This document shows positions 3,601 through 39,125 of a stretch of DNA of 64,000 bases, piece by piece. Made by a program: the position numbers and the translations under genes. How positions within the stretch are numbered: position 1 is the first letter of the stretch; every line of letters begins with the position of its first letter. The DNA comes from Marsupella aquatica (lineage: Eukaryota; Plantae; Marchantiophyta), in NCBI GenBank assembly GCA_973895155.1, contig OZ316892.1, forward strand, positions 28,836,932 through 28,900,931. Reading direction: 5' to 3'. The notes below the pieces were generated by a model. It worked only from the letters and a program-made list of their open reading frames with translations. It ran no database searches and was not told the DNA's origin.

Positions 3601-4853
3601 GGGAGAGAATCATGTCCAGGTGCGTCCCCCCTGGCGGGGCTGGGAACCAGGTCTTTTGCCGGGGTTCGACCGGGGCGACCGGGGCGACCCCTGTCCTCTG
3701 CTTCGAGCTGTCGAAAGGCCGAACGAAGAAGCCAGAACGAGAGGAGAAAAAGCTATGGAAGCTGCGGCAACACCTCCGCCTCCTTCCTTCCTGGCGGGCC
3801 AAAGTAAAAGGAGCTGAGGTGGGGGAGCACTCAGCGTCTCAGCGACGGGGTGGTGCATTGACGTGAGCGAAGGGGAGATTGGGTGCTTTGGTTAGAGATT
3901 GATCGATCGGGCGATTCAGTCAGCTCGTCGTTTATCTACTCGCATGCGCTGAGCCTTCATTTGCGTTACTCGTCTGTGCAGATATTGGAGCGGAGAAGTG
4001 TCACCAAATTGAGTGAGAGGTGATGACCGGAAACGAAACTCTCTTGTCAATTTCTTCTCATTATTCTATGCCCTTCTTCCGCCCCTCTTCCTCGTACTAA
4101 GGGCCGTGCATTTCCCCTGGTCCCTTCTCGCCTCTCTTCGTGCTGTTAAAAGCTTTCGGGAGAGTGTATATTAGTAAAGTTGTCTCTCTTCTCTCTGTAT
4201 TTTGAGAGCCCAGAAGCAAATTTCTGTAGGCGGAGCGGAGTCGTCTGGACTGATGCGCATTTGGTTTTGTGGTTGAGTGGAGAAAGAGAAACTTTTTGCC
4301 ACTGCTAGTGGCTTGGGAAATGTTTTAGGATAGTTCAGCAGTCGTCGAGACACAACGACAGTCCGCTTTTTGTTTGTTAACAAGGGGGGATTACTTTCTT
4401 GGAGAGGCCGCGATGTGTCGGACACTGGCGTGAGAGTTTTGAGTGGCGCTGGTTGAGAAGGTATTAATCGGTTTCCAGATTGAAATTTGTCAGGTTGCGG
4501 GAGGCTTGTCAGTGGTATCTCTGGCAAGAGGGACCAGTGTCGTATAGATAACCGAGAGATATCCTGCGGAGTGGTCGGAGAGCCGCTCATTATTTTGAAG
4601 AAAAGCCCAATCGAAGCGGAAGAAGCAGCCTAGTGTGTAGGGGGAGCGCAATCGGCGGGGTGTGCTGCTCGGAGCCGAGAAGGGAGCGATCTCACAATAG
4701 TATTTGTGCTCTGTTTTGATACACTCAACTGCCTAGTGACTGAATTGTTTAGGTGAGGAGCAAGGAAACGGCGAGTTCGCTTTGCCGTGGAGAAAAGGTT
4801 GGGCAAGGACTGAAACTCCGCGAGAAGGTCGGTAATCTTTGTGAGCGATCACG

Positions 4854-7734
4854 ATGGCGGCTGTAGCGGCAGGCGTCGTGGGAGGACTGCTGTCAGTTAG
4901 TAATGGTCTGCGGACCGGATCCCGTTGTCCCAAAGTGGCCCCTTCGTCAGTTGCCACTTCAGCTTTCGTTTCTCTCCGAAGGAATCCACTCTTACCTGCC
5001 ATTCCCTCCAGCAAAAGGCAGAGCAGGAGAGCAATCAAAGTTCGAGCGGCCTTGATTGAGCCTGATGGTGGACAACTGGTCGATTTAATTGTTCCTGCTG
5101 AGGAGAAAGCGGCGAAGGTGGACGAGGCGAAGACTCTTCCTCAAATTCAGATCACGAAGATTGATCTCGAGTGGGTTCATGTGGTGTCGGAAGGATGGTC
5201 CAGCCCGTTGAGGGGATTTATGAGGCAGGGCGAGTATTTGCAGGCTCTTCACTTCAACGTAATGAGGGCCCCTGATGGGACCTTGGTGAACATGTCGATC
5301 CCCATTGTGCTGGCCATCGATGATGCTCAAAAGGACAGTATTGGTAGTCAAATGGCGGTAACTCTTGTGGGCCCCTCCGGAAATGCCGTCGCCATTTTGC
5401 GCAAGTGCGTTCGCTCCCACATGTATTTTGATCGTAGTATGCGAGTCATGATGTGCTTGCTTGATGTTGTGTTCATGGGGGTTCAGCTTGATGTTTGTGA
5501 GTTTTGGAGTTCCTGGGTGCTGGTTTTTCTTTTCGAAAGGAGTGGAGTTCGACGGTGGAGCTTTAATTCGGTTGAATTTGTCCCATGCATGTACTCATTA
5601 GTAGTTTCCCTTTTTTTAAATGGTTCTCGCTACCAGGTTTAAATCTACAGTATTGTTCGGTCTACTTCGTGAAATAGAACTCTCTTTTGCACTTTTTTCC
5701 CATTTGGCAAGCTTATCTTGCCTGGAAGTTGATATATCACGCTTGTGGGGGTCTTGGATGGTTGAATTGATACATTCATTCAGCTTGTTAAATATTCTTG
5801 AGTGTGTCCTGGAAAGCTTGTCTCGTGCGTTTGATCGACATCCTAGCTTGGTAGAGTCCGTTCTATGATGACTCTGACCTCGGTTAGGGATTGAACTTAT
5901 AATTTTCGTCTGCGTTGGCTGTCCCCTCCAATGTTAGTTGTGTGGATCTAGATGGCCAATAGGCTTCTTCTATCCTTGGTCCTGCTCGGATGATTTTCGA
6001 TTCTACATCCATTTTTCTCAGCTGTTAACCTTTGAGAAATGGACCCTCTTGCAGCATTGAAATCTATAAGCACAACAAAGAGGAGCGAATTGCTCGTGTG
6101 TGGGGAACCATCGCTCCTGGATTGCCTTACGTAGACGAAGCTATCACCAACTCTGGCAACTGGTTGATTGGTGGCGATCTTGAAGTACTAGAGCGAATCA
6201 AGTACAACGATGGCCTAGATGATTACCGTCTGTCTCCAGCAGAGTTGCGTGCTGAGTTTGAAAAGCGCAATGCTGATGCTGTCTTCGCATTCCAACTCAG
6301 AAACCCTGTGCATAATGGTCATGCTTTGCTCATGACGGATACTCGTAAAACCTTGTTGGAAATGGGATTTAAAAATCCTATCTTGCTACTCCATCCTTTG
6401 GGAGGATACACTAAAGCTGATGATGTACCATTGAACTGGCGTATGAAGCAACATGACAAGGTGGGTTTATCACTGTTTGTGAAATTAACCTGATTCATCC
6501 ATCCCATTTCCGGCGAGGTTTTACGAGTATCGGTCATGAGCAAAGCATGATCATTGCTCATGGGTCTTATACTCGCTAAACCTTGTCAACGATCCATTCC
6601 AACCTCTGTGTGACTTTTTTCTTTCTTTCAGTCTGAGCTGACTCTCTGGGACCCAACTGATACAGGTGTTGGAGGAAGGCATTCTGGACCCAGAGACCAC
6701 TGTCGTTGCGATATTCCCATCTCCCATGCATTATGCTGGACCAACTGAGGTGCAATGGCATGCAAAAGCACGTATCAATGCTGGGGCTGATTTTTACATC
6801 GTAGGCCGCGACCCAGCTGGTATGGGTCACCCAACTGAGAAACGTGATCTTTATGATCCTGACCACGGAAAGATGGTGCTTAGCACAGCTCCAGGACTTG
6901 AACGATTGAACATCCTCCCATTCAAGGTACTCAATAGATGGGTGTGTTTGAAGCTTTCTGTCATACGTTGCCATATTGATGATGTGATTTGTCTGAGACG
7001 TCATGGGTCTTGGGGTGAAAGTCTCTGCAATCAAATGCACCGTATTGCTTGTTACACTAATCTAGTAGGTCGGAGAGACTGGGGAAATATGATCACCATC
7101 CTCCAGTTATTAAATTATTCAGTGAACCTGTGCATTGTCCTGGATACGAGTATCATGCTTGTCATTAGGCGTACTGCACGGTGCCACAATCTATGCCCTT
7201 GTGCCGCCCTCTTCTCACTTGATCAACTGTTATTTGACATAGTTATGGGGTAAATGTGTGATTGTGCAGGTGGCCGCGTATGACAAGAAGGCTGGTCAAA
7301 TGGCATTTTTTGATCCATCTCGGGCAGAGGATTTCCTTTTCATCTCTGGTACCAAGGTGTGTTTAGGTCCAACATTCCCTTTTTAAATCTACTATCGCTT
7401 CGATTAGATTTGTACACGCTCTGCTTGAGGATGCGAGCAGGATTGCGTCCTATTGTCTGCCACAGCTGACATTTGCCTCTATATATAATCGTTTGACTAG
7501 GTTTAGGGGTCTCTAATTGTCTCTCATTTTGTGCGTTACGTGTTCTCGCTTATGCAGATGAGGAATTTTGCCAAAAGCGGGGAAAGCCTCCCAGATGGAT
7601 TCATGTGTCCTGGAGGCTGGCAAGTGTTAGTTGATTACTATCAAAGTCTCTCTACCAATGGGGCTGCAGTAGCTCAAGCAAAGCCTGCTGAGTCAGCAAA
7701 CTCTGTTCTACCTGGCAGCCCCGTAGCGGTCTAG
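4854..7734 (+). CDS. APS: ATP sulfurylase, plastid-targeted; exons 4854-5404, 6055-6460, 6666-6926, 7270-7356, 7558-7734
   Basis: Motifs [50 protein letters not shown] and GFMCPGGW. Ser/Arg/Ala-rich transit peptide. All four introns are GT-AG and phase-consistent. Confidence 0.97.
6501..6590 (+). repeat. Intronic inverted copy of APS exon 2 (6501-6555) followed by a degenerate direct copy (6554-6590); foldback hairpin
   Basis: 6501-6555 equals the reverse complement of 6314-6368 at 50/55 nt. The minus-strand ORF 6319..6561 re-reads [11 protein letters not shown]. Confidence 0.95.
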
Positions 7735-9205
7735 TAGGATTTATGTGAGCGTGTATCCGTAACTCAAGAAATTTTGTAGGATTGTTGATCATTGCATTGT
7801 CCGGGCCTTTGAGGCAAGTCATCCTGTAAATTATGTTTCGTTTGTAGACCAAGATGTAATTTAGGTCTCCCGAGCCTGGCCAGACAACCCAAGGAGATGG
7901 ATTTCATGCTCCTTTATCTTGCGAGCACATAGTTATCTACCTTGTCAACATAAGTTGACAAACTCGGGTTCTTGAGGAGAGAGACTTCATGGATAGTAAA
8001 TCTGTTATCCTTCATAATATTCAGGCCACTTGGAGTTTAGCACTTAATAAATCATCTCGCTGATATTTGCTATTGTCTAGATTACTTGGTGTTGAAAATA
8101 TTGTAGGCCACGGTGGGATGCTGTGAAGGCTTGGTAGGTAAAGCACATTTGTCCGGCTGGTTTATCAGATGATGCAGTTCGGCCATCTGGATGGGCCGAT
8201 GCTAAGGGGTTCGATAGCTATTCTGGCACTATGGGCTTATACGTTTCTGGCATATTGAGTTACTTCCTCTGTGTTTGCCCTGCTGGTAATCACACATCAA
8301 AATGTGACTGCATTCATTGATTGAAAGAAAAAAACTAAGGTTATCACGGTATGCAAGGGTGTCGAACATCGTAGATGTCATGTGTTTGTCTCCATCAATC
8401 ATCAGGACATTTTATCTCTGCTACACCGCTGTAGTCTGGCATTTAATGTGGGTTGGGTGGGTGACTCAGTATTTTTTGCTTTGACCATAACGGTATTTGA
8501 CTTGCGAGGATGACAGACTTGAATTGCCAACGTCACCGTTGTGTTTCATGAATGCCACCACCATTATCGAATAGCTTTCTCACTTGCCGACGCAAATCTC
8601 CAGTTCAGAACACTTTGCCGTCTCCTCAACCGCACTTATATCTTGAACCAGTGCCACAAGAGAGACCATTACCACTACGCAATACTCAACTGGTCCAATG
8701 TCTGCCCCCAAGTCTGCCATCATCAGCCGAACGCCAATCCTTCTATCTTGCGAACGCGTGTCACTGGGGAGATCTCGTGCAAGACAGACATTCTCAATCC
8801 TTTGCTAAACGCATCAAACACGTTCTGATGATGACACAAACCTGCAAGGGTTCTTCGTAGGGTCTAGTTTTGATTGGCCGGTTTAATGTGACGAGGCATC
8901 CCTGCGATATACAGGAATCGCCAATTATCGGTTCAAGCCATCTGTTCCTTGTCACCCAGACGAGATGTCACGATTTGTTAGAAATTTGACCTGCGAGGAC
9001 TATTCTTTCGTCTACCCGATCATTGGTCAAGAGCTCTCCTGACGTTCTTTTCTCTTGAACAGGTTGCCCTCGTCGGCCTCCATGTATCAACATCTCTACA
9101 GTGGATTAAGGAGCCGAAATGCAATTGAGAGGTGTGCATTTCCGAGAGCAATTGCACCATAAGCATGGAAAGTAAAAATTCGACTGAGCGTGTGTGTGCG
9201 GATTT

Positions 9206-10322
9206 CACGACTCGGGATTACAATGTCAGTGTATGGTACAAACGATTACACCGTCGGGATGACATCCATGATTACACGATCACTTTTGACTCGAGATTAC
9301 ACCCTATATAGCAAAGTGTGACATCCATGATTACACTATCACTTTTGACTCGAGATTACACCCTATATAGCAAAGTAAGTACAATTACATAGTGGGGAGC
9401 CAGGCTTTCACCCTCTTTAGTAAGACTCAGGCTTGGTTTTAGGGATTCCCATCAGGTTCCTTTGAGACCCTCCTTTGGGGTTTATTCCAAAGTTCTACCA
9501 GATTTTTCAGTTCTATGCTCTGCTTTGAGACCCTCCTCCCTCCTTGGTTTATTCTAGAGTTCTACCAGATTTTTCAGTTCTATGCTCTGCTTTGAGACCC
9601 TCCTCCCTCCTTTGCGGTTTATTCCAGAGTTTTACCAGATTTTTCAGTTCTATGCTCTCTTTGAGACCTATGCTCTCTTTGAGACCCTCCTTTGCGGTTT
9701 ATTCCAAGAGTTCTACCAGATTTTTCAGTTCTATGCTTAGTAGGATGTTAGCTTTCATGACTCCTTTACAGGTTGCATTTTAGTAGGCTTTTGGGTTAGG
9801 GACCCCTTCACTTGTTTTTTCTTGTCACCTTTTCTTTCCATTTCATTGGGTTGTTTTGCCTTTGGGATCTTGTCTTCAGATTATGATATATGGTGATAGG
9901 GTTAGGGACCCCTGCACTTGTTTTTTCTTGGGGCCCTTTCCTTCCCTTTTCATTGGGTTCTTTTGACTTTGTGATCTTGTCTCCAGATTTTTTGCCCTTG
10001 GGCACTATGATATATGGTGACATCCGCTTTCATTATACTGTTACTTTTGACTAGGAATTACACCGGTACTGTACCCTAAACGATTACATCATCGGGATAA
10101 CATCCAACATTATTACACTGTCACTCTTGAGTCGAGATTACACCGTCATTGTAACGTTGGAAAGATTACATCGTCATTGTAACGTTGGAAAGATTACATC
10201 GTCAACATGCAATCCACTCTTATTTACACTGTAACTTTTGACTGGAGATTACACCTTTATTGTAACGTAAGAACGACGATATCGTCGAGATGACATCCTA
10301 ATCGTTACTGTCACTTTTGACT
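9206..10322. repeat. Composite repeat block: GATTACAC-rich degenerate units (9206-9376, ~10040-10322) flanking other tandem arrays
   Basis: Repeated 'cacttttgactcgagattacacc'. There is a ~59-bp direct duplication at 9260-9376 and a 27-bp duplication at ~10143-10200. Confidence 0.7.
9461..9737. repeat. ~62-66 bp tandem repeat, 4 copies
   Basis: Unit tttgagaccctcct...gtttattccaragttctaccagatttttcagttctatgct. Confidence 0.9.
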
Positions 10323-12128: not shown

Positions 12129-15100
12129 ATGTATTGGATGCGCTTTGTAAATAAAATCCTAGTCGCCTCCAGGACTGGACTAGCGTGCCTGATTATTGGA
12201 GCAATGATAACGTATGTTCCTTCAAAACAACTGCTGGATAGAATGCTGGCATTCACCACTTACGCACCAACTATTGCAATAAGTGCTTGTGATGCCACAG
12301 TGGGGAAGGTGATAAGCAACATATGGACAATCATGCAGGTGGCTCTGTTTGTGATGCTAGAAACGATGGTTATACTTCAATTCCTTCCACCTCCGATAAA
12401 TAAGGTCCATATGCTCACCGTCATTTTCATGTCCAGCTTTATAGTTTCACTTCCAAAGCGAGTGACCATAACCGGGAAGAAAGTAGGTCTTGCACAGATC
12501 TGCATGACCTTCATAGCTGCGAATTTGGACCCGCAGCTGGACGTCGTATGGATGCCTCTCAGATTTCTGGCCTCGATTTTTGTTGGAGCTACGGCGGCCA
12601 TGCTAGCGCTACTCATCCCATATCCTCTACTCGCCACAGTGGAGGTAATCAATCTCGCTGATGCCCTTGAATTGTTCCTCTTCGTCTCCTCATCGAATAC
12701 ACCTTCTCATCACCATTAGTCCAGCACTATGTAACAGTGTTCTCTATCATCGACTCTTGTCCTGCCTAACAATGGCTGACACCCTAGCGTACAATGATCA
12801 AGTATCTCGTGCCGAACTTGTCACAATTCCTACAAGATTATAAAGTTAAACCGCCGAATTGTAGTTGTACTTATCCCTTTTTAGTTTGTAATTGCACTTT
12901 CTGTCCCATGTCCTCAAGGACTATTGAACACAAGGTTCATTGTGTCGTTCGCTCATTTGTTCATACCTTGAATCTCTAGGATTTTCGTTCCAAGGGTATC
13001 GGGAATCGACCATCTACGCATCTCCTGGAAAAGAAACTTGAACTTCACCGTTTCTAATAATCTACGGTTCTACATACTACGTCGACGTTGAAACGTATTG
13101 TTCTCGTTCCTGGGATGGATCTCTGCAGAGTGTTTCCGACTTCTCAAGAAAGTTTTAGCTCCCTCTTCCGAAGCACTGCGCTCAAATTAGGATGGCTTCA
13201 TTGCGAGATTTCTGTACCATTTATGATCGATTGAATTTCCTTGGACAGTGACAGGCAAATGACCTCAGTTTCGCTCAAATTATTTGCAGGTAAAGCGACT
13301 GTCGAAAGCTGCTGTGAGCAGTACATCAGACCTGCTCCAAACAGTGGCGAGTGCATTTTGTGCAGCTGACGCGAGCACATCCTACTCCAGATGCCTACAT
13401 TCAAGGGTGCTCAGTCAAGCAGCATCTGACATCCTCGCCGAACTCCGAATAAAGCAGGTGTGATCTGATCACCTTCCTGTCCCATCGCACTTCTTTGCAC
13501 CCTCTTCGAATTCTCTAGCACTGACTCACTACTGCCGCAGCGGTAAGCTCTCTTGTTAAACAGAGGGGGCAAATCGTGAGAGCTTGAAAATTGTGAGATT
13601 TCTATTGGTCTCACCTGCTGTGTGATACAGAATATGACTACAGTATTGTTGCCATATATTACAGAAGGACATTCCGTGGGAGGTGAGGGCTTGTGGGAGA
13701 ATACGTCGTTTTGCAAATTTGACGAAAGGTTTGGAAAAGCTCCATCTACATCTTGCAGGTATGGAATTGGCTCTCAAATCTCACTACTTGTTGCAATCGT
13801 CCCACATCCTTCGAAACACGCTAGAAATGCCTCTCATGAGAGTTGTCCAAACGAGTATGGCTTTGCTAAACAGCTTCGGAGAGGTGCACTTGTGCTCCTC
13901 CGAAGTCATCGATTGCAAGGGGCTCGTCAAAGAGGGCAAAGAAGCCTTGGCTTTGTTTGATGAAGCTCTCTTCGTTGCGAGGACCAAGGCCTTCTACTCA
14001 GAGAAAGTAAGAGAGCCGCCTATAACGATAGGCCCGCTGACCACCAAACGAAGCATGGAGAAGTTCTCCCTGGATGAACTTCTCAAACTTCCCACCATTG
14101 AAGCGATTAGAGGCTTTAACGGCCTCAATGCCCTTGAAGGGTCCACCATTGAAGTGCCCGACGACATAATCTCACCCACTAAGAGGGCATTCATGTCTAG
14201 AGTGACAACTTATTTCTTCCTCTTCAGCTTGAGGCTCTACGTTGAAGGGGCTATGACGTTAGTGGATGCCGATTGGAAAACTCCTCTCATGACAACAGAC
14301 ATAGGTTCAGATCAAGACTGGAGGCCTGGGCTTGAACCCCTCATGACAGATATAGAGACTGGTCCAGCTACTGAGGAGTCCAATCAGACCGGCCCCCTTG
14401 ACAAAGCAAATAATGCCAGTGAACCGCATCAATTACCCCCTCCATATCCCCTTCCTGGCCAATGCATCCAATGTGCTGTACCGACATTAACAGTACCGGA
14501 AGTGAACAAAGAATGTGTGTGGAAATTCTTGAAGAGAAATCATCCCACCAGGGGTCAGATACGCAAGGCGTTGAAAATCTCCCTCGCCATGATGCTGGCC
14601 ACGATTTTCGGCATGCTAGCCCTTCCAAATGACAGCCACTGCGCATGGGCGCCCGTGACGGTGGCCATCTTTCTTGGCAACCATCAGGGTGGCTCCTTCC
14701 GGTTGGCAATCCTGCGTATACAAGGGACCGTTCTTGGATCCATTTTTGGGTATCTTGTGGTCAGAACCACACAGAATGGCTATTTGCTTTTGTTCGCGCT
14801 TACAATTTGGGTAACTGCGTCCGACTTCATTCGTTCTAGCAAGATCCATGGATACTCAGGGATAGTGTCAGCACAGACAGCAGCCACCATGATTTTGGGT
14901 GATTTTCCCAAGGAGATCAAATTATTTGCAATGGACCGTGTGACGGAAACCTTTGTGGGCGTAATGTGCTTCGTGTTTGTGGAGACAGTCCTCTTTCCAG
15001 AGAGGGCAGTCATTCTAGCTAAGAGGGAGCTGATGTCCAGCTTGCAAGGTTTGAGGAACTGCGTTGCGAGTGTTTGCACTGCATACGCGGGGAGAAAGTG

Positions 15101-15884
15101 TGAAAGCTGCCGTCGTCACGCAATTGACGAGATCATGAAGATTGAGCAGGGCTTGAGGACCAGTTTTGACAGGCAATCCATGTTGTGCGCTGAGGCAGTG
15201 GCTGAGCCGGATCTCTGGTTCGTGCCATTTCCCGGGGACGTGTTCGCTCGGCTAATTGCCGTGCAAGAACGTATGTTGAACCCTTTGTGTTTTATGAGAT
15301 TTTCCCTACAAGCCACTGTGGAGGAGAATCTAGATGAGCACATGCAAACTTTGTTGAAACCACTCCTGGCGTCTCTGCTGGACTTGGAAAAACAGGTGGT
15401 GTCGGCCATAGATTTCCTCCAGACTCTTTTCATTGTGCCCGGGCTTTTGACCCCAATGGAGAGAATTGTCAAATGGTTTGTCCCTCCCGGCTGGATGTCT
15501 AAGCGGTCGAAGGAAAAGGTCGCAGAGAGGAAAGCTGCCTTGTCTCGGAAGATAAACACTCCACTACAGTTGCTTGGAAATCGTAGACGGTCTGTGGCTG
15601 GGACGCCTCTGCATCTCAAAGCCTCCCAGAAACACTTTGAAAAGGACTTTGAGATTATGTTGGATGATATTGTGCAGAAGAGTAAGGCAGGCCAAATTAT
15701 TGTGAGCAACTCCGTGATGTTGTCGCTCAGCTCCCTCAGCTTTTGCCTGCATGAAATCATGAAGGAAACGGTTGAATTGGAGAAGACCGTATACGAGCTG
15801 TTACAGGCAGAAAGGCCTTGGAGTGTTCTCGACCAGTGGGACAATGATATTCCCAGCAAAGCAACGTGGCAACAACAACAGTAA
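12129..15884 (+). CDS. FUSC/aromatic acid exporter (ALMT-superfamily-like) membrane protein, At2g28780-like; exons 12129-12644, 13290-13457, 13665-15884
   Basis: Two hydrophobic helix bundles with motifs ALLIPYPLLA, WAPVTVA...GGSFRLAILRIQGTVLGSIFG, GYSGIVSA, RVTETFVG, LFPERA and EPDLWFVPF. Both introns are GT-AG, phase 0. The start codon is uncertain. Confidence 0.85.
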
Positions 15885-19745: not shown

Positions 19746-22507
19746 TGAACGAGATAGTGTTACTTCAAAGAGTTCGGATTGCCACGCGAAGCCTGAACCC
19801 AATGCTTCTACCTACTATTGGACCCTGTAATTGCAGACGAATAGTCTAATGCCTTTTAATTACATTGCCATTAAGGATGTTCTAATTTACAAAATATCAT
19901 TCTTTTTATGATATTTATAAATAAAAATACTAGAGTTTTTCTTAATTCACATCCTTGTTATTTGGTCAAACTTGTCATCTTTATTTTTAAAAAATGGCAT
20001 ATTTATAAATTAAACAAAAAACATGGCACTATTATCAATTTGAACATTTTTAGGGGCAAAGTAATTAAAAGTTGTAGTCTAATGAAAGCACTCCAAAAGA
20101 CTGATGGAAGGAGAGCTCTCTGGCAATGAGAATAATGCTCTTGCACCAACAGAACACTGCAGCTTGTTATAGGTGCACTAGCCCAATGCCCTGTGGTACA
20201 CATAGGCCAGAAAATGTGAGTGAGGCAAGAAAATGCTAGTAGGGCAGGGTGAGACAAGGAAATGCAAATGAGGGAAAGAAATGTGAGTAGCACAAAGAAA
20301 TGCAAAGTGACAAAAACAATGAAAAGGAGACGTAGAAATGCAAGTGATACAAGGAAGCTGTTTAGGCATGTAACAAGTCATAGCGGCCAAGTTGTTGTCA
20401 TTGTCATGAGGTCGTTGAGGATGCGATCATTGCTGCCATATTATTGTTATTGTAAACAACCGTCGGCTCCAAACTAGACAACAATGCGAAAACATGAGAG
20501 ACACTTAATCAGACGCTACACCGACAAGACACCCCGAGTGGAGAAACTCCTGAAGGCTCCATAGCAAATGAGAGTACATGTGAAGAATGAGGGAGAGAGT
20601 GCTTCCCTCCAGCCTATACCCCCCAAGGGCGCCAAGGTGAGTGGGCCTAAACTAAGTGGATCTTATCCTAATGTAATCCAGGGTTAACAAACCCTAGTAA
20701 GGCCAAACTAACTAAGTCGGGAACTCGAGTCAATTCCTAACAATCCCCACCTTGACTCAAGTTCACACAATGAGTCAGGTGATATACAATATGTAACTAA
20801 GTAACATATCTACATAGTCTCCGGTTTGGCCATAACATTAATAATATCCACACAATGACTAAAGCTACTGGTAGGTAAAATTTTGGTAAGCATGTCTGCC
20901 GCATTCACCTCTAAAGCCACCTTCTCCAGAAACATTTGCTTCATCTCAATCACCTCACGGATGAAGTGATAACGAATATCAATGTGCTTTGTCTTGGCAT
21001 GGAACACAGGGTTCTTAGCTAGATGCAAAGCACTTTGACTGTCACACAGCAGCACCGGTCTTTCAGGTGTAAGACCCAGATCACTCACTAATCTTTGTAG
21101 CCAAATCAGCTCCTTGGTTGCCTCACAGGCAGCCATTTATTCAGCCTCAGTAGTAGACAACGCAACATAGGATTGGGTTGCCGACTTCCAACTGATACAA
21201 CCTCCACCTAGCATAAACACATAGCCTGTAGTAGACTTCTTGTTATCCAAGTTACCAGCATAATCTGAATCTACAAAACCTTCCAACTACAGTGTAGAGT
21301 TTGCTTTATCGTCAAATAAGATCCCACAATCTAAGGTACCTTTCAGATATCGCAAAACCCACTTCACTGCTTCCCAGTGAAGCTTACTAGGATTTGCCAT
21401 AAATCCGTTCAAAATGCTAACAGTGTGGGCAATGTTAGGTCTAGTGCATGTCATTGCATACATCAAACTACCCACAACACTATCATAGGGAACATGTTTC
21501 ATCGCCAGTCTATCACTCTCACTAGAAGGGCAATCATTCTTTGAGAGTTTAAAGTGGGAAGCCAATGGAGTACCAACTGATTTTGCATTCTCCATTCCAT
21601 ACTTGGCAAGTACCTTCTCCAAATGCTGCCTCTGGGACAACCATAATTGCCTCTGCTCCTTGTCACGATAAATCTCCATCCCTAGTATCTTCTTGGCCTG
21701 ACCCAAGTCCTTCATTGAAAACTCCTTACTCAACATTGCTTTCAGATGAGCAACATCAGACTTATTCTCAGCCAGGATGAGCATGTCATCCACATACAAT
21801 GTTAGCACAATGTAACCAAAGCGTGAGTAATTCTCCACCTCCTTCATGTAAATACAACAATCATGTTCACTCCGTGTGAACCCCTAAGACAACATGAAGG
21901 AATCAAAATGCTTATTCCACTGTCTGGGACTTGCTTCAATCCGTATAACGAGCGCAAGAGCTTACACACCAAGTGTCTGGTCTTCTCGTCAATAAAACCT
22001 GGAGGCTGAGTCATATAAATCTCCACATCAAGCAATCAATGCAGGAAAGCAGTAATTACATTTATCTGATCTAACTCAAGATCATAGAATGCCACAATCG
22101 CAAGTAAAACACAGATAGTAGCGAGTTTGACAACAGGTGAGAAAATCTTCGTGTAGTCCAAGCCCTCCTTCTGGGTGTACCCTTTGGCCACAAGGCATGC
22201 CGTGTAAGTGTCATCCTGCTTCTTCTTGTACAACCATCTACACAGAACCAGTGTCTTCCTGCGAGGCATGTCAGTTAAGCGCCAAGTTGAATTATTTTTC
22301 AAAGAATTTATCTCCTTCAACATCGCCTCCATCCACTTATCCTTCTCTGGAGAGGCCATAGCTTCTTCATAGCTAGAGGGGTCTCCATCTTCAGTGAGCA
22401 AAACAACACCAGGATCATCGTCATGCTCAACAACGAGAATACGAGGATCTGCAAAACCAAATCTATTAGGGGGTTGGCCAAAATTGGCCCTCGTGGAGCA
22501 CTGGAGA

Positions 22508-22891
22508 AAATGCATAAATCAAATTGATTCTATTATTTTATATTATTTATAGGAGAGACTATTAAATTCATGTTTATTTTTCCAAAATAGAATGAGCTAG
22601 TATTTTTCTTATTCGAGAGAGACGATGAGCTGCAATAGATATCTAGATATATCTATATATATAGATATATAATTTATAGGTCAGGGGAGGAGATAGCCTT
22701 GACCTCTAACCTTTGAAGATACTAAGGACCTGGATGTTCCCTTACCACGCTCTTGAGATCTGTTACATAGGCCTCTAGTTTTCCCTTGGGAATGCTCAGA
22801 GACTTTGTGGAAGTGACATAGGAACTTCGGGTGAGGATCATGGCACTTCTACTAGAACCTTAGGTATGCTTTCGCTAGGAGCTCAAACTGG
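22508..22891. mobile_element. 384-bp unclassified insertion in the copia integrase-RT linker
   Basis: Partly AT-rich non-copia sequence bounded by an 8-bp direct repeat ACTGGAGA (22500-22507, 22892-22899). No terminal inverted repeat is visible. Confidence 0.55.
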
Positions 22892-25682
22892 ACTGGAGAT
22901 GGGAAGCATAGATCGGGGTGAGGAACTGCACCTCTACCAGAGGGACCAACAGCTTCCTCATCACCACCAAGCTCCACCATAGTGGGTTTCTCCACCTGTT
23001 CTTCCTGAATATCCTGGGGTCTTAACAACCATTCTTCGTCAAAAACAACATTTCTACTCACAATTGTCTTGCAATCGACAGGATCCCACAATTTATAGCC
23101 CTTCTGCCCAGGACTAAAGCCTAGACAAATACATTTCTTAGACTTGGGATCCAACTTAGACCTGTGTGTCTGCTCAATGTGAACATAGGCAGCACAACCA
23201 AAAACTCGGAGTCTAGAGTAATCAACAGGTCTCTTATACCACAACTCAAATGGAGTCTGCATCAACTTACTACTGTGCGGTGACAGATTATAGACGTATG
23301 CAGCTTGGTTGACAGCTTCAGCCCAAAAGTTGTTGGGCAACTTGGACTTACATAGCATGCTGTGTGCTTTCTCCAATAATGTCCGATTCAAACATTCTGC
23401 AACTCCATTCTGTTGCGGGGTCTCCGGTATAGTGTAATGACACTTGAGGCCAAGGTCCCGACCAAATTGGTCAAACTCATTAGACTTATACTCACCACCG
23501 TTATCTGACCGAACACACTTCAACTCCTTCCCAATTTGTAGCTCCACCATGGCTTTCCACTCCTTGAAGATCTCAAATACTTGAGATTTTTCCTTCATGT
23601 AGTACAGCCAACACATTCGAGAGTAATCATCTACAAACATCACAAAATATCTGGCTTCATCCAACGATGGTTCCGGCGCTGGACCCCAAACATCCGAATG
23701 TACATACTCAAGAATCTCATGAGAATGGTAGAACTAGAACTGAAACTCACTCTCCTCTGCTTGCCAAAGATGCAATCTTCACAGAAAGGTAGTTTACCAG
23801 ATTGAGCACCTTGCAACAAATCTTTGTTTGCCAAAGCTGTCAATCCTTTACCACTCAAGTTCCCCAACCGTGCATGCCTCAAATCTATGGCTTGTGTGCG
23901 ACTGGATGTTGAGGGTGCTTCAATTGAAGCAGCCATAGATGACTTCGTGGCAGATGTTGTCACTGCATTCGAACGTTCCACCACAGAATCCACATGCTCC
24001 ACTTTAGGAGCAATGACATCTCCTTCCAAGATGTATAAATTATTCTGCCGTAGCGCCTTAATCAAAGATACATCATCTTTGACGACAAAGAGCGCACCAT
24101 CACGTGCAGTGAAATGAGATCCACCAACTTCCAAAGCACCAAGAGAAATCAAGTTCTTAGAGATGTTTGGTATGTGTCTGACTCCCGTCAGTGCTCGCAC
24201 AACACCATCAAACATCCGAAATTTGATAGTCCCCATGCCAACAATCGTACATCGGACTCCATTTCCAATTTCCACAGTACCGGTACAAGGTTGGTAAGTG
24301 GAGAAATATGATTGCATTGAACACACGTGATAAGAGAAACCCAATATCCATTTATTGTTATACACATAATTCACAACACCAATACACAGCACTTTAGCAG
24401 CATCCTCATTATCAGCAATCACAATACCAGTTGACAATGAGGATGCACCATTGGAAGTAGGATGCTTCTGCTTCGATAGAGAAGGACAATTCCACTTGGT
24501 GTGGCCCTTCTCATGGCAATGCCAATACTAAACTTTCTTACTACGGGACTTAGATTTAGATCTACTTTGTGATTTAGATCTAGACTGATTCGTAGTACGC
24601 TCCGTCGATCTGCCTCTAACCACTAAGGCAGCAGATTCATTATCACGGCCAGAAAGTTGTCGCTTGCCCCATTCTGCAAGAACGGTAGCCTTCACCTCAT
24701 CCAGCTTCAACTTAGAATTATCATGTGTGATGACCGTCACCAATGTTGAATAGCTCTGAGGAAGCGACATCAACAAATGCATCGCAAGATACTCATCGGT
24801 CAACTTGTCTCCTGCCGTGACCACCTCATGCACAATCTCATTGAAGAGACTGAGGTGATCACACATGTTGCCACCATCCTTCAACTTCAACCTGAATAGC
24901 CGCTCCAAGTGATAAATGTGAGTAGTCAATGAAGTATTCTGGTAGAGTTGAGTAAGCATATCCTAGATCTTCTTGGCGTTACAATCCATTCCCAACACGT
25001 TCTTGAGAATGTTGTTTGCCAAGAACAACTCAATTGTGCTACACGCCTGCACCGACATGTCCTCCCACTCCTCATTTGTTAGATTCGAGGGTTTCACTCC
25101 AGTGAGGGTCTTCTCAAGACCCTGCTGGATCAACACATTGGTCACCTTCCGAGTCCAAATGCTAAAAGCTGACCTTCCCGTCAAACTTCTCCACCTCAAA
25201 CTTTGGCGCCGTAAGCTTTCTTGAAGTCATTGATGCTGTCACAAACACACAGGAAATACACAACCGAAATACCTCCACCCAAAAATTCACCAAAAAATGA
25301 AAGTTGGCGAAAGTGGAAATGGAATGCACCGCCGCGTAGCCTGCAAGGTACACTGCCAAGATCTGAAAATGATTAGGCAAAAAACTTCTTCAGCGAAAAC
25401 TTATTCAACCTGGACCGGAGGGGGGTCAAAATGGCCGTTGTTACTCCCATTGGGTATCTTAGGTCTTGAAAATTTTTTGCAATAGCAACGCACGAATCAA
25501 ATTCACTAGCCCGTGCTCAACTCCCTTGAATATCCCCTTGCAAAGTCTCACAAAAAAATTCTGCCTCGACGACCGCCGAATTTGAAAATTTCGGCCAAAA
25601 ATCAGCTCTATGGAAAAGTATATTTTCCAAGGAATCAAAGTACAGTCAAAATGTACAGTAGAAAGAACATGGAGCTGACACT

Positions 25683-27856
25683 TGTCCGATCACGGAAAGA
25701 AAGGAAGAACACAGAAAGAAAGGAAGAACACAGAAAGAAAGGAAGAACAGCAAAAGAAAGTCCCTTGTATTTAAACAAGTGACAAAAAGAGCCAAGGGCG
25801 ACGATCGCCCCTCCAGGCCTCCGAATTCTTTCGCAAATAATACGCCCCTTGTGCATAGGGTCATGCGCCAGCCCTGGATCTCCTACTCCCACTCAAAACT
25901 GCATAGGGCTACGAGCCCTCGTGGCTCATCCCCTTGTCAACAATTAATACCAAGTACAGGGTGCACATCCCTGTATTTATAGTCCCCTCTTAAGTGATTA
26001 AGCACAAAAGACAATCTCGAGGACAATCAATGCCCCTAATCGTACTAATCCGGGCAGGGAACCCTTCGGGCAGTTTTTGCTGCCATGTTGCCCTTTCAGG
26101 ACCGGCCCGGGTCCAGCACTCCAGGCAAGCAGGTCCCACTCGCCTTGGCGCCCTCCACCCTACAAATGCCCTCCGCCAGCCCTCTGTCCGCCCTTCACCC
26201 GTCCGTCAACCAGAATGGGTCCCACAACACCCCCGTCGGGAAGCCATCGCATCAAGCTCGTTGCACTATGGCTACGGGGATTCTGGATTCTGAATTGTGG
26301 ACTAGAGTGGAATAGAGTGGACTATGGCTACGGGGATTGGAAATTTTTAGCATCTCTAAGGTTCAGCAAAGTCAGAGAGGACTAAGCAGATTCAGAAGGA
26401 CTTACCAGATTGGAGAGGACTACCGAAGTAATAGATCTGGAAGAGAATCAAATTAAAGCAACAAGAATATTGCTTGGAATACAGTGGGGCCAACATCTAT
26501 AGCTATGGCTATTGAGAAGCTAGATTCCAAACAGCCAACAAGTGAAAGCGTGAAGGAAACAATTCAGAATCCATTTCACAAGGTACTTATATTGCTTATT
26601 CCAAGAAGTTTTCTTTTGTGCCCTAAGTGGACTATCGGTTCCCAAGGAAGTTTGTCAGTTTCTTGTCTTTCATTCATTTCTTTCTCTAATTTTCATTCAT
26701 TCTTTCATGCAAAGTCCAACATTGTACAATCTGGCACTTTACAGAGTTTAATGCAATTTTATATGCAAATCTGGACAATTTTTTTAGTGGCCGTGACTCT
26801 TTGATCTGTTTTTTTACAAAAATTTGCTTTTCAGTTTACTCTACTGAGTTTAATGCACATTTTTTATGCAAAGGCTGACGGCGAACAATCTTTTGGTTGG
26901 AGTGACTCTGTGATTTGTTCTTTTACGAAAACTTTCCTTTTCAGATGCCTGTGCAAAAATCTACATAGATTTGCAGAATTGTCAATAGATTTTGGTCTAT
27001 GTGCTATGTGATCTGTTCTTTGACAAAGCCTTTCTTTTTCACTTATCTTTGCAGAGTTCTAAATAGATTACCGTGGTCCAATCTGCATAAGGACAATCAA
27101 AATCTTGTTTACTTCAATTCTCTCTTTGAAGTTTTTTTTAAATACTTGGTCACTTGTGTACGTAACTGCGTTAACATTCTAGTTGAGGGGAGTATAACTG
27201 TACATCTCAACCAGGACCAAGTATTTAAAGAAAATGAAACCAAAACATAAAGAAGTAAAAGAAGATCGAAAGAATGTGGATTATTTTTCAGGGCAACCTG
27301 GAAAGAGGAAGCAAGATGAAGACTTTGAGAAAAGTGAAGGTAAACAAAATCGACACCACTGTTAAAGACTTGATTCAACAAAAGCATCAATTCCACTCTG
27401 GTTGACAGACGGGTGAAGGGCGGACGGAGGGCTGGCGGAGGGCATTTGTAGGGTGGAGGGCGCCAAGGCGAGCGGGACCTGCTTGCCTGGCATGCAGGAC
27501 CTGGGCCGGTTCTGAAAGGGCAACGTGGCTGCAAAAACTGCCCGAAGGGTTCCCTACCCGGATTAGTACGATTAGGAGCATTGATTGTCCTCGAGATTGT
27601 CTTTCGTGCTTAATCTTAAGTGCCTTGGGCCTCCCCTCTTAAGTGCCTTGGGCCTCATACGAGGTCTCCTCACACTTGGCTCCCCCAAACAAATGGGAAG
27701 TGTACCTACACCTTTTCTCCCTTCAAAAAACCATGTAAGGCTTATGCTCCCTTGTACATATAAATGCTCACCCTACTCTGTACTTGATGGTACAGAATGT
27801 ACCTTAAACTCTACACCTTCTCCTCTTAAGTGCCGCGTACCTTCTTGTGTAGTACA
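25683..27856 (-). mobile_element. Solo LTR (~550 bp net) in the copia 5' leader, itself interrupted by a TIR element
   Basis: TGT...ACA termini, perfect TSD ACACT (25678-25682, 27857-27861), and a minus-strand TATA box CTATAAATA near 25975-25983. Confidence 0.75.
25996..27615. mobile_element. Non-autonomous DNA transposon with ~223-bp terminal inverted repeats (MULE/foldback-like)
   Basis: 25996-26218 and 27393-27615 are near-identical inverted repeats. They are flanked by a direct repeat TTAAGT (or CTTAAGTG, depending on end placement). No transposase inside. Confidence 0.88.
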
Positions 27857-30800
27857 ACACTCGTACCGGGATTAGAGTTGTACCTCCCACTGGACCCACT
27901 CACACCAAACCAAGTCGTATTAGTATACGATGATACACCGTATATTGTATAGTGCATCCGGCCGCACCGCCGTAAAAGATTGCGCAACAACTCCTGAATA
28001 AAAAATTGAGGGAAGTAGAAAATACAACTTCGAGCGAACACTCTCTACAAGGTTTATCGAGAGAAACGGGACCCCACAGGCCCCACAAGGAATACCGATA
28101 CACGAATTACACCTTAGCCAAGAGCTTAGAGCTCTAATCAGCAAAATGCAAATTGATATTGCTCCACACTCGCCGGATGAAAATATGTGAAACTATCACC
28201 GAGATGTAGTGCCCGCCGCTGCGCACAATAAATTGTCAGACTGTCCTCCCGATAGTACCCGTTGGAAACACTATGACATGTCCAATACTTCAACAAAGTT
28301 TCAATTGGGAAACCGTCACCACTTCCAAACACAAAAGGATCAACGCAAAACGGCTAGTGACATGATCATGCAATCATTGATGACGATTCAATCTTCCACC
28401 ACGATCCAACACACAAACGCTCTCACCACTGCCCAAGCCACCAAACCACAAACACGAAGATCTGATACCACTTGTAAGAAACCGTCGGCTCCAGACTAGA
28501 CAACAATGCGGAAACATGAGAGACACTCAATCAGACACTACAACGACAAGACACCCCGAGTGGAGAAACTCCTGAAGGCTCCATAGCAAATGAGAGTACA
28601 TGTGAAGAATCAGGGAGAGAGTGCTCTCCCTCTAGCCTATACCCCCCAAGGGGGCCAAGATGAGTGGGCCTAAACTAAACGGATCTTATCCTAATGTAAT
28701 CCAGGGTTAACAACCCCTAGTAAGGCCAAACTAACTAAGTCGGGAACTCGAGTCAATTCCTAACAGTTATATCCATGCAGTTGTAGTGGCCATGGTGTCA
28801 TCGCAACCATGTTATTGGGCGTGCAAGTTTTGTGTGCAAATAAAGTTGAAGAATTACAGTTATTCATCTCAATAAAAACATTATGTGTAAGATGTTTAAA
28901 TACAAATGTGAGGCCTTGTTGTTCAATGCTCACAACATGCAAATGTTAAATATGCGCAAGCTGATTGCAAAGATAGAAATAAACTGATATGATCATAAGT
29001 TGATAATCGCAGATAAGATTAAGTGCTGAAAACACGAAACGTCTGTTGGAAGACGTAAACTTCCATAGCCTTGGGCCCAAGAGGAGCTCTCACTCAAGCC
29101 CTCAAAAATCAAAGTTTGTCCTGGGATCCAGACGGTCCACCCTGAGTCTGGCCCTTCCCATGACCCGCCCAACTCCCACGCTAGTCCAAGTCTTACTGTG
29201 CGTCACAAACTTAGGGCATTGCCCTTGCTAGTGCAATGCTTCGTTGCCCACTAGTCCCCTCTGGATGGCCGTTCCGGAGGCCCGGACCATAGAGGGGCTT
29301 GGTGTTGGAGTCAACGATGCCAGAGCTAAGCGTAAGGGTAGTCGAGTTCCGCGACTGTGACTTTGTGAAGGAATTTTTGTGTCTATCCTTTAAAAAAACT
29401 AGAAGAGGGTGTCACAGATGTTAAGAAGAGAAAGGAGAGGGAAAATAACATGGGTTGCCTTTCGTTGTTGGGTAATTAGGCATGTGTCCTTCTGTTTAAA
29501 GCTAGAATTTAAAAAGTCAGGCAAAGAAGAAACAGAGAGAACAAATAGACACAAAACAGTCAGGCAAGGAAGGAGGCCCAAGGATTGTACTTCAAGCGGC
29601 ACAGTGGAGGTAGAGGTAATACAGGGGTCAATGCACCGCAGATGGCAAGGCCAGGATCTGTCCATGTGGGCAAGCAGGTGCCCAAGGCTTGAGGGGCTCA
29701 ATATATTTTGTGATCTAAGAGTCAGCAAAAAATGCCAAGAGATCAATCAAACACTATAATGCCAAAAGATTTCAGCTCCCAAGAAGAAATTAACACTTTT
29801 TTTGTGTTGAGCAACAAGAGATTGTTGACAATTTCATGAAGGAGAGTTGTAGCATGCACAGTTATCAAACCATCAAATCCTGTCAAAAAATGTGAACCCT
29901 AATATTTATATTAACAGAATGAAAAATAATCTAATCAAACCCTAATATTTCTATTAAGAAAATGAAAATTAATTTAATAGAATTTACCCCTCTGCATTCC
30001 ATGATGAATAATGCAACAACATGGACCAAAAATCCATTGTCACTTTGATGGAAGTGTAACTTGCTTAGTTCTCTAGCACATACTCAAAACCCAAAAACAT
30101 TTGAATTTATGAAGATCAAGTTACTACAGTCTAAACTCAAATTTGGTCCATGGGAGTTTCAAAAGACCAACTTTGTGATCAATGGGAGCATCATTTTGAG
30201 CATTGTGAGCTAGAGTTTTCCTTATAGGTGAAGTAACTTTGACTTTTGGGCATTGTGAGCCAGAGTGATTGGTCTTCTGATCTGTTCTTCATTTATATAA
30301 ATGAAAGAATATATGCGGGCATCATTAAAGGTTTCCATAAGTCCAGCATCCCAATGGGATGCAGTCATGTTTAACTTGAAGGGAAACGTAGTTTACTCTC
30401 CTGGCAGTGTACACAAGGGTGAGACTCAACTCGCTTTTTCTGCTGGAGAGAAGTCACAAATCGTAAGTCCATTTATTTTCTCTCCTGGCGTTTCTCTCTG
30501 TAGTCATTTTTCTAAGCGCCTAGAATCGCTGTTATAACCTAGAGAGAGAAGATTGGGCAAAAGAAAATACTTACCAAAAATTTCAATGTGACGGTTCAAC
30601 AATTCAAAATTAGGGAACTCAGAACTATCAGTCTCTACTCTTTTCCGAATCTGTGGACTCAGCTTGTTCATACTATACCCATCGAGATTATAACGGGGCA
30701 TAGCATCGACCAATTGAGCCATTCGTCCCAGCATCTGCCCTAAACAAATTTCTCCATGTCGCTTGATCTGCTGAGGAGAAGAGGAGAAAACATGACCTCT

Positions 30801-31262: not shown

Positions 31263-32126
31263 TCAAGCTGCCATTGATTTCTCTTCTGTTCTTTCAGAAA
31301 GACCAAAGCTGTTCAAAACCACCTGAGTTTCTTCTAAAGCACTCCCATCACGTACTATTCTGAATGTTCCAGGTAGAGTTAGGTCAACAATCGTAGAGCC
31401 AGCCCTTCCAGGAGGCAGCAGACCAGAATCAAAGACAAAAGAACAATGCGCCCAGAGATGCCGGAATTCGTCAACACTGACAGTGCTGGCCTGGCTGCTC
31501 AGATTGGCACTTGTGAGCGCAAGAGCCCCTCTGAATGTCCTGCAGAGGCGGCGAATGAAAGAATCATCCGGTATTCTCACCCCAATGCTTGGTAAGCCAG
31601 GGTTCAAAGACTTGTCCAACAAGCTGGAATTCCCTCGAGGCAGAATCAGAGTAACGGGTCCTGGAAAGAGAGCTCCTAACAAGCCATGTGGTAGGTGCTT
31701 CACCGTCCCGTACAGCTCAATATCCTCCACATCGGCCACACAGATGGCCAGAGGTTTCGTTGCGCTACGGCCTTTGATGTTGTAGATTTTCTGTATGGCA
31801 TTTTCAGAGCGTGCATCACAAGCAAACCCGTAAAGTGTATCGGTGGGAACTGCAATGACCTGCGACCTGTTCAAAGCGTCTGCGGCGCTAGAAATGTGAA
31901 CAGCTTCAGCAGGGAGCACCAACCCATTTTCCCAGAAATCTTCCTTGGTTTCGATGGTGGGAAAGTTATTTAGAGCCATAGCGGGACTTGGAGAAACTAG
32001 CTTGAGCCTTCCAGCAGCAATTCTACCCCTTCCAACCCAGCCCACGGATCTCACGCCGACTTGACTGCCATAAGTTGCGCACATACCAGTTTTGAACAGC
32101 CGAATCCATTCCAGGTTCATAATCAT
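31263..32126 (-). CDS. YRDC: YrdC/Sua5 (TsaC) threonylcarbamoyl-AMP synthase with an N-terminal extension; single coding exon
   Basis: Motifs VIAVPTDTLYGFACDA, IKGR..KPLAICV, PGPVTLIL, GVRIPD, LALTSANLS and GSTIVDL. First in-frame ATG is at 32126, with further ATGs downstream. Confidence 0.93.
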   Translation of the reverse strand: MIMNLEWIRLFKTGMCATYGSQVGVRSVGWVGRGRIAAGRLKLVSPSPAMALNNFPTIETKEDFWENGLVLPAEAVHISSAADALNRSQVIAVPTDTLYGFACDARSENAIQKIYNIKGRSATKPLAICVADVEDIELYGTVKHLPHGLLGALFPGPVTLILPRGNSSLLDKSLNPGLPSIGVRIPDDSFIRRLCRTFRGALALTSANLSSQASTVSVDEFRHLWAHCSFVFDSGLLPPGRAGSTIVDLTLPGTFRIVRDGSALEETQVVLNSFGLSERTEEKSMAA

Positions 32127-32414
32127 CGAGAATTCGCCCCCTTGGAACAAGATCAAACCAAACCATCATGCCAAGACGATAAATTCCTGTCCATACTACG
32201 GTAACAATCCGATTTCAATCCACAAAGAAACAGGATAGCTGTCCAGAGCTGTAGCTTCACGGGACAGAGGTCCGACAATGAAAGACGGAGAAAAATCTTA
32301 GTCATCAACAGCGAGAACAGAAGTTCTCGAGCGACGTGGGGCTCTCCCTCACAAAAGTGCCGTCCGTCCGCAGGGCCCTTGTAAGCTCGAAGCAATCGCA
32401 CGAGACAGAAGAAG

Positions 32415-33409: not shown

Positions 33410-33509
33410 TTGGCGTGGTATATATAAGACTAGGAGAACCAGGTTTTTGTGCTCTTTATTAGCGTGAAGACTTCCCTGGTTCTTCCTAGTCTTATATATA
33501 CCACGCCAA
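33410..33509. repeat. Near-perfect 34-bp inverted repeat with a 31-nt spacer (MITE-like or hairpin)
   Basis: ttggcgtggtatatataagactagg-agaaccagg / cctggttcttcctagtcttatatataccacgccaa, differing by one bulged base. Confidence 0.9.
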
Positions 33510-38536: not shown

Positions 38537-38597
38537 CAACTATATTTTAAGGTGCATTAACATAGAAACCTAGCCCCATGCCACTGCATTGGAGGAA

Positions 38598-39125
38598 AGG
38601 CAAGATGTGAGGTGAAGGCAAGATTTTGAGTGATCTAGATGTCAAGGTGAGGGCGAGATTTCGAAGAGAGGCAGCAATGGCAAGATGTCGAGGAGAGGCA
38701 AAGATGTCAAGCGAGGGCAAGATGTCGAGGAGGCACAAAGATGTTAAGCAAAGGCAAGATGTCGAGTGAGAGCAAGATGTCGAGGAGAGAAAGATGTCGA
38801 GGAGATGGTAAGATGTCAAAGCAAGCACAAGATATTGAGGCGAAGCAAAGTTGTTGAGGCGAGGGCCAGATGTTGAGAAGAGGCAAAGATGTCCAAGCGA
38901 AGGTAAGATATCGAGGGGAGGGAAAGATATCAAAGAGGGGCAAAAATGTTGAGATGAGTGCAAGATGTCGAGGCTAGGGCAAGATGTCAAGGCAAGGGCA
39001 AGATGTTGAGATGAGAGCAAGATGTAGAGGCAAGGGCAAGATGTCAAGGTGAGGGGAAAGATGTCGGGACGAGGGCAAGATGCTGAGATGAGGGAAAGGT
39101 GTTGAGGCAAGGCGAAGACGTGAAA
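38598..39125. repeat. ~18-bp degenerate minisatellite (GCAAGATGTCGAGG core); related tracts at ~33230-33400 and ~39430-39500
   Basis: More than 20 recurrences of aagatgt(c/t)rag, purine-rich on the + strand. Confidence 0.9.

What the first reader, a model, noticed from the sequence alone, without database searches (positions are those of the whole stretch)
6314..6555. ATP sulfurylase intron 2 carries a 55-nt antisense copy of its own active-site exon, with wobble-preserving substitutions
Seen: 6501-6555 is the reverse complement of exon 2 positions 6314-6368, which encode [18 protein letters not shown] and overlap the HNGH (HXXH) active-site motif, at 50/55 identity. All four transition differences (three A>G, one C>T on the intron strand) still pair as G-U, and only one position is a true mismatch. 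In the pre-mRNA this duplex would loop out ~130 nt containing the 5' splice site at 6460/6461. Inference: the pairing may be maintained at RNA level and control splicing, or supply dsRNA to Dicer. Caveat: four of four transitions falling in the wobble direction has a 1/16 chance probability, so a neutral template-switch duplication is not excluded.
Basis: partly seen in the sequence, partly recalled or inferred. Interest (0 to 1): 0.85.

Follow-up and report, generated by a model that had tools for sequence, protein, structure and literature searches.

The report
Liverwort gene with built-in antisense hairpin
An intron of a liverwort sulfur-metabolism gene (ATP sulfurylase) holds a backwards copy and a shorter forwards copy of a piece of the gene's own coding exon, so the unspliced RNA is predicted to fold back on itself and would likely be cut by the plant's small-RNA machinery, damping the gene's own output, although a functionless DNA-repair scar is almost as likely.

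Summary
The gene is a leafy-liverwort ATP sulfurylase. A second haplotype (5.5% intron divergence, one contig) has 0 changes in the 55-nt arm (p about 0.03-0.05; 0.35 if the place is not pre-chosen). The wobble argument is weak: three of the four G-U changes lie within 4 nt and some are matched by C in the intronic sense copy. The 5' splice site is not predicted to be specifically masked. The exon:arm stem is predicted to beat the local hairpin by 40 kcal/mol and fits Dicer-like geometry better. Best reading: a proto-MIRNA-like, self-damping foldback (0.42); a neutral repair scar is close (0.38). No RNA data were available, so processing and function are untested. No such copy in 33 distant plant loci.

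The parts
4854..7736 (+). ATP sulfurylase (APS) gene, five exons (4854-5404, 6055-6460, 6666-6926, 7270-7356, 7558-7736), 493 aa
   Evidence: Pfam PF01747 and PF14306; sister to Calypogeia fissa APS, 433/493 identical, support 100/99
6314..6368 (+). exon 2 source/target stretch (N-G-H of HNGH to E-M-G)
6461..6665 (+). intron 2 (205 nt, GT-AG)
6501..6555 (+). antisense arm: reverse complement of 6314-6368, 50/55; unchanged in second haplotype
6501..6511 (+). 11-nt part of the arm left unpaired in the local hairpin and perfectly complementary to exon 6358-6368 (predicted toehold)
6519..6542 (+). candidate 21-nt small-RNA registers with 5' U (starts 6519-6522), one mismatch to the mRNA at position 14-11; predicted only
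6554..6587 (+). decayed sense copy of exon 6326-6357 (6 substitutions and a 2-nt insertion); 3' arm of a local hairpin 6512-6587
6497..6600 (+). insert with junction microhomologies: near-direct repeat 6497-6505 / 6592-6600 (8 of 9 identical) and 2 shared bases at 6554-6555
   Evidence: sequence

Best explanation
Intron 2 of this liverwort ATP sulfurylase gene carries a 55-nt antisense copy and a 34-nt decayed sense copy of its own exon 2, likely made by foldback template switching during DNA repair, and the antisense arm is predicted to pair with the exon in the pre-mRNA as a 55-bp stem that is likely cut by a Dicer-like enzyme, which would destroy a share of transcripts and would release 21-nt antisense RNAs against the spliced mRNA. 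Shown: the two copies, their junctions, the arm's invariance in one other haplotype. Computed: the stem, its dominance over the local hairpin, the 5'-U registers. Inferred: foldback origin (a 3' end at ATCCC primes on GGGAT 132 nt upstream, copies 55 nt, folds back again on itself for 32 nt, rejoins), Dicer-like cleavage, a damping effect, weak selection keeping the arm. It is a proto-MIRNA stage locus lying in cis inside its own target.
For: Architecture (long inverted plus short direct exon copy) matches inverted-duplication MIRNA birth, e.g. Aha-miR217, 263 bp inverted plus 66 bp direct (passages). Arm has 0 of 55 changes against 63 substitutions (72 events with indels) in the other 1143 intron sites between two haplotypes: p 0.044 / 0.028, Fisher 0.048 / 0.030; 8 of 941 other 55-nt windows have none. 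All five arm/exon differences are shared by both haplotypes, so recent conversion has not erased them. Exon:arm stem -93.8 kcal/mol, 40.5 kcal/mol better than the forced local hairpin and formed once 12-20 nt of the arm exist. Base-to-loop processing needs about 15 nt of lower stem and tolerates terminal regions of 254-569 nt (PMC3787264 passages); counted from 6314/6315 this gives 5'-U 21-mers starting 6519-6522. Precedent for processing a host pre-mRNA: miR838 in DCL1 intron 14. 51 intronic pre-miRNAs in Marchantia.
Against: No small-RNA, degradome or RNA-seq evidence. The invariance rests on one contig of one run (X3 record 7); an 80-nt invariant run somewhere in these introns has p 0.35. 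Arm-versus-sense asymmetry is not significant (Fisher 0.09-0.51; sign tests 0.03-0.29 depending on how events are counted). The G6337:G6532 mismatch is uncompensated and, in one register (start 6522), falls at position 11. The cutting register depends on where the stem base is placed (6303 gives other products). Co-transcriptional splicing or exon-bound proteins could prevent the duplex in vivo. Targeting one's own source gene is expected to be mostly deleterious and short-lived. Earlier scan cases of inverted exon copies were judged neutral (unchecked notes).
Confidence: 0.42

Rival explanations
1. Neutral repair scar: a double foldback templated insertion that is tolerated because splicing outruns pairing; any small RNAs are inconsequential. 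The G:C pairs between arm and sense copy are copying errors passed on in the second foldback and now decaying by C>T.
For: Junction microhomologies and flanking near-direct repeat; foldback inverted duplications at breaks are documented in yeast (PMC11724301 abstract); three A>G changes lie within 4 nt; post hoc run p 0.35; the window lineage has T6577 where exon and second haplotype have A, i.e. the local hairpin has lost a pair; absent from 33 of 33 distant plant loci tested; most young MIRNA-like loci drift and die (PMC1790633 passage).
Against: 0 of 55 changes at a site chosen before the comparison (p 0.03-0.05); sense-only changes outnumber arm-only changes 6 to 0 in 6516-6543 (p 0.03, but 0.25 if clustered changes are merged); a -94 kcal/mol duplex over a coding exon is unlikely to be wholly silent (inference).
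Confidence: 0.38
2. Cis-acting splicing element: the exon:intron duplex slows or modulates intron 2 splicing without Dicer.
For: Duplex predicted to dominate; more stable on the transcribed strand than on the opposite strand (-93.8 vs -78.0 kcal/mol); it could cover exonic enhancers (inference).
Against: 5' splice site lies in the loop; its predicted accessibility is within the range of shuffled controls and the 3' splice site is unaffected; no retention data.
Confidence: 0.1
3. Mature intronic miRNA cut from the local hairpin 6512-6587 after splicing, with the sense copy as miRNA*.
For: Hairpin z -3.4, 0 of 200 shuffles; MFEI -1.01; 0.87 pairing probability in the excised intron; 5'-U candidates have 4 unpaired and 2 asymmetric nt; second-haplotype changes 6577A and 6586C both strengthen it (-36.7 to -40.1; 15 of 96 random single changes in that arm improve it).
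Against: Stem of about 32 bp with a 10-nt loop leaves only 7-10 bp below and 2-5 nt above the candidates, short of both the ~15-nt lower stem and the ~42-nt terminal region described in PMC3787264; no Rfam family at gathering level.
Confidence: 0.08

Closest known systems
[quoted passage not shown]
   Same: Long inverted plus short direct copy of an exon; extended complementarity to the source gene beyond 21 nt; decayed star-like arm
   Different: Lies inside the source gene's own intron on the same transcript, so the real exon is itself the strongest partner; no small RNA shown; local hairpin short
Arabidopsis MIR838 in DCL1 intron 14 (PMC12825306 passage); moss miR1047 (seen in search listing only; role recalled)
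   Same: Intronic fold-back whose processing would destroy the host pre-mRNA and compete with splicing
   Different: There the hairpin is wholly intronic and the host is the Dicer itself; here the stem is exon:intron, copied from the host exon, in a metabolic gene
miR395-APS module of seed plants (PMC4923854 passage: ATPS1, 3, 4 are targets)
   Same: Same target gene family
   Different: No sequence relation; other site (exon 2 rather than the exon 1 stretch recalled as the miR395 site, from which this gene differs at 6-7 of 21 nt); no sulfate inducibility shown
Foldback / template-switch templated insertions at DNA breaks (PMC11724301 abstract)
   Same: Local inverted duplication, microhomology at junctions, two pieces of one locus in opposite orientation
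   Different: Longer than most yeast events (5-34 bp); possible later constraint on the arm

Membership tests
Plant MIRNA locus | Single-stranded precursor folds into a stable stem-loop | tested here: met
   z -3.4, MFEI -1.01 for 6512-6587; exon:arm stem z -9.1; prediction only
Plant MIRNA locus | miRNA/miRNA* duplex with few mismatches (at most 5, at most 3 asymmetric nt; thresholds recalled, the paper was not held) | tested here: met
   4 unpaired and 2 asymmetric nt in the local hairpin; 1 mismatch in the exon:arm stem
Plant MIRNA locus | DCL1 determinant: ~15-nt lower stem or ~42-nt terminal region, local intronic hairpin | tested here: not met
   7-10 bp below, 2-5 nt above the 5'-U candidates
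Plant MIRNA locus | DCL1 determinant: ~15-nt lower stem, exon:arm stem | tested here: inconclusive
   fits if counted from 6314/6315, other register if counted from 6303
Plant MIRNA locus | Precise, replicated miRNA and miRNA* reads | not testable with these tools
   no RNA holder listed
Plant MIRNA locus | Target cleavage (degradome / 5' RACE) | not testable with these tools
   no data
Inverted-duplication-derived foldback (proto-MIRNA) | Arms similar to a protein-coding gene beyond a 21-nt site | tested here: met
   55 nt and 34 nt
Inverted-duplication-derived foldback (proto-MIRNA) | Transcribed and yields small RNAs | not testable with these tools
   transcription inferred from position in an intact gene; no reads
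MIR395 family | Sequence/structure match to the family | tested here: not met
   Rfam scan of 4500-8500: 1 match at E<=5, mir-3126, 24 bits against a gathering score of 80
Mirtron | Hairpin ends coincide with splice sites | tested here: not met
   hairpin 6512-6587 lies 51 nt and 78 nt inside intron 6461-6665
MITE / transposon-derived hairpin | Terminal inverted repeats of a dispersed family, unrelated to host exon | tested here: not met
   both arms derive from host exon 2; no further copy in the 64-kb window; whole genome not available
Templated (foldback) insertion | Local template, inverted orientation, junction microhomology | tested here: met
   the pre-insertion allele was not seen, so the junctions are inferred

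The most novel reading that the evidence does not exclude
A leafy liverwort has evolved a self-contained substitute for the seed-plant miR395 brake: its ATP sulfurylase pre-mRNA is its own pri-miRNA, with the coding exon serving as the star arm and an intronic sense copy plus an 11-nt toehold setting the balance between splicing and dicing.
Probability: 0.13. Interest if true: 0.78.

Novelty: new variant of a known kind. Interest (0 to 1): 0.42.

Why it matters
If functional, it would catch a small-RNA gene at birth inside its own target, needing no new promoter, and show convergent small-RNA control of ATP sulfurylase in a lineage whose model species (Marchantia) lacks miR395. It is cheaply testable with one small-RNA and one degradome library. 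If neutral, it is a tidy but ordinary repair scar that shows a 55-bp exon:intron duplex can be tolerated in a housekeeping gene.

Tried and rejected
No whole genome is held for this window, so copy number and other targets could not be searched. Sequencing-run search: 5 runs, no RNA holder listed; no evidence either way on expression. A pattern for exon motif plus antisense echo 50-80 nt into intron 2 found 0 matches in metagenome contigs; those contigs hold no close liverwort locus among the 43 fetched, so this says nothing on close relatives. Run X5 did not cover the arm; X2 was read only in part (57%) and covers 6523 onward. Assembly artefact rejected. Known RNA family rejected. RNA editing rejected: the differences are in DNA contigs. 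Copy from a paralog: not supported, no second high-depth APS-like contig at 80% or more was listed (tables were cut), and the arm carries the R-K-T codons seen in only 1 of the 120 listed homologues. Conservation of the exon target itself is uninformative (0 changes, about 0.6 expected at synonymous sites counts). Weak antisense echo in intron 3 set aside (broken by indels in the second haplotype). The annotation-criteria paper (Axtell and Meyers 2018) was not held; thresholds are recalled. No paper describing this element was found in searches (listings only); subscription journals and supplements were not seen, and supplementary miRNA lists of liverwort papers could bear on novelty.

Full report
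Gene and organism. The region is a five-exon plastid-type ATP sulfurylase of 493 aa (Pfam). Exon 2 is 94% identical to a Calypogeia fissa protein, the best identity among the 120 listed of 2862 hits; in a tree of 20 proteins chosen from those hits the protein is sister to it (100/99) inside a liverwort clade (98/95). The source is therefore most likely a leafy liverwort. No whole genome is held.

Observation. 6501-6555 is the reverse complement of 6314-6368 at 50/55 with four G-U positions and one G:G mismatch, as reported. It is far beyond chance and is present in contigs of three runs from two studies. Three of the five differences would change the protein if they were in the exon (G>D, L>S, L>S), so they arose in the intron; 6337 is a synonymous third position and may have changed in the exon.

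Directly behind the arm, 6554-6587 is a sense copy of exon 6326-6357 with six substitutions and a 2-nt insertion (0 of 2000 shuffles against the target stretch). The intron therefore folds by itself into a hairpin 6512-6587 (z -3.4; 0.87 pairing probability in the excised intron). The junctions share bases: 6554-6555 belongs to both copies, and 6497-6505 and 6592-6600 are 8 of 9 identical. This geometry is what two successive foldback priming events would leave (inference; yeast precedent PMC11724301, abstract only).

The wobble argument. With the transition share seen between haplotypes (24 of 41) the chance that 4 of 5 changes are G-U compatible is 0.044; if the three A>G changes within 6512-6515 are one event it is 0.11-0.25. 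G6512 faces C6587 in the sense copy in both haplotypes and G6513 faces C6586 in the second one. These are double changes relative to the exon; they fit either compensation in the local hairpin or errors copied during the second foldback that are now decaying. Neither needs selection on the exon duplex.

Comparison with a relative. Runs X3 and X4 (one study) each hold a window-like and a divergent haplotype; whether these are homeologs, alleles, duplicates or a mixed sample is not known. Over introns 1-3 (1198 sites) the divergent one differs by 63 substitutions and 9 indel events; none falls in the arm. All 13 substitutions and 3 gap letters of the contig that spans the arm (X3 record 7, 6284-6905) are accounted for outside it. 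For a site named in advance p is 0.044 (substitutions) or 0.028 (all events); 6497-6576 is the longest invariant run (80 nt; next 61, 55, 51), but a run that long somewhere has p 0.35. X4 adds only 6548-6555 for that haplotype and X5 does not cover the arm, so this rests on one contig. The sense copy has two changes, both strengthening the local hairpin, one of them the exon-like state. Arm-versus-sense asymmetry is suggestive only. Among 43 plant APS loci from metagenomes I examined 39 (four partial matches left out); 5 were spliced and 1 too short; in the other 33 (30 with a delimited intron 2, many redundant, exon identity mostly 0.69-0.76) the best antisense score was 14-24, within shuffled range, against 86 here. 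The element is not a general plant feature; close relatives remain untested.

Which RNA structure. In the pre-mRNA the exon:arm stem is predicted at 0.73 once the transcript reaches 6512 and 0.96-0.98 from 6520, and it beats the forced local hairpin by 40.5 kcal/mol; 6501-6511 stays free in the hairpin and could seed displacement. Splice-site accessibility is not specifically altered. Against the DCL1 determinants described in PMC3787264 (passages) the local hairpin is too short by either route, whereas the 55-bp stem with a 132-nt loop has room for a ~15-nt lower stem plus a 21-nt duplex; counted from 6314/6315 the arm-side products start with U at 6519-6522 and have one mismatch to the mRNA. 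Near-perfect stems of young loci are said to be handled mainly by siRNA-making DCLs (PMC12825306 passage), so heterogeneous siRNAs are as likely as one miRNA. All of this is prediction; no RNA run was available.

Known systems. It works most like an inverted-duplication proto-MIRNA (PMC1790633 passages; Aha-miR217, passages) combined with the host-transcript destruction of MIR838. It cannot be filed as a MIRNA: reads are untested and the local hairpin fails the processing determinant. It is not MIR395, a mirtron or a MITE. Cases where a miRNA's host is also its target have been listed computationally (PMC3464803 passages). Marchantia has 51 intronic pre-miRNAs (PMC9291395 section 10) and miR395 is not among its seven conserved families, while a miR395-like read was listed for Pellia (PMC4368373 passage). 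The exon 1 stretch recalled as the miR395 site is near-invariant in seven fetched loci and differs here at 6-7 of 21 nt. Searches (listings) showed no description of this element.

Verdict. Real, more elaborate than reported, with a well-supported foldback origin. Function is open: a self-damping Dicer substrate (0.42) narrowly leads a neutral scar (0.38); splicing control (0.10) and a mature intronic miRNA (0.08) trail. New variant of a known kind; interest 0.42.

Noticed in passing
window 6946-6976 (intron 3): Weak antisense echo of the start of exon 4 (7270-7292): 16/20 complementary; 1 of 1000 shuffles against exon 4, 2 of 500 against the whole CDS. Broken by a substitution and several insertions in the second haplotype. 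Possibly an older decayed copy of the same kind, possibly chance.
   Followed up: partly
runs X3 and X4 over window 5380-7400: Each run holds two haplotypes at similar depth, one identical to the window and one 5.5% divergent in introns; would fit an allopolyploid or a recent duplicate.
   Followed up: partly
window 6344-6352: The protein reads R-K-T where most homologues read R-R-R or R-K-R; among 120 listed hits only the Calypogeia fissa protein shares it. The intronic copies carry these derived codons, so they postdate or track that change.
   Followed up: partly
window 5232-5252: Stretch homologous to the seed-plant site recalled as the miR395 target; differs at 6-7 of 21 nt from the near-invariant form in L001-L003, L006, L008, L009, L011.
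   Followed up: partly
window 25989-27620: 1.6-kb element with 223-nt terminal inverted repeats, 94% complementary; likely a non-autonomous DNA transposon; no clear target duplication seen.
   Followed up: no
window 19853-20071: Degenerate AT-rich inverted repeat with the same 10-nt word close to both flanks; MITE-like.
   Followed up: no
window 33410-33509: Perfect 26-nt inverted repeat with a 48-nt spacer.
   Followed up: no
window 21290-24527 and 46918-47565 (minus strand): Retroelement remains: RVT_2, rve, gag_pre-integrase and Integrase_H2C2 domains in separate frames; 294-nt direct repeats at 20450-20742 and 28472-28765.
   Followed up: no
window 13638-15884 and 31263-32165: Long open frames with FUSC/ALMT-like and Sua5/YrdC domains.
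   Followed up: no
window 9200-10320 and 38590-39500: Degenerate tandem repeat arrays.
   Followed up: no
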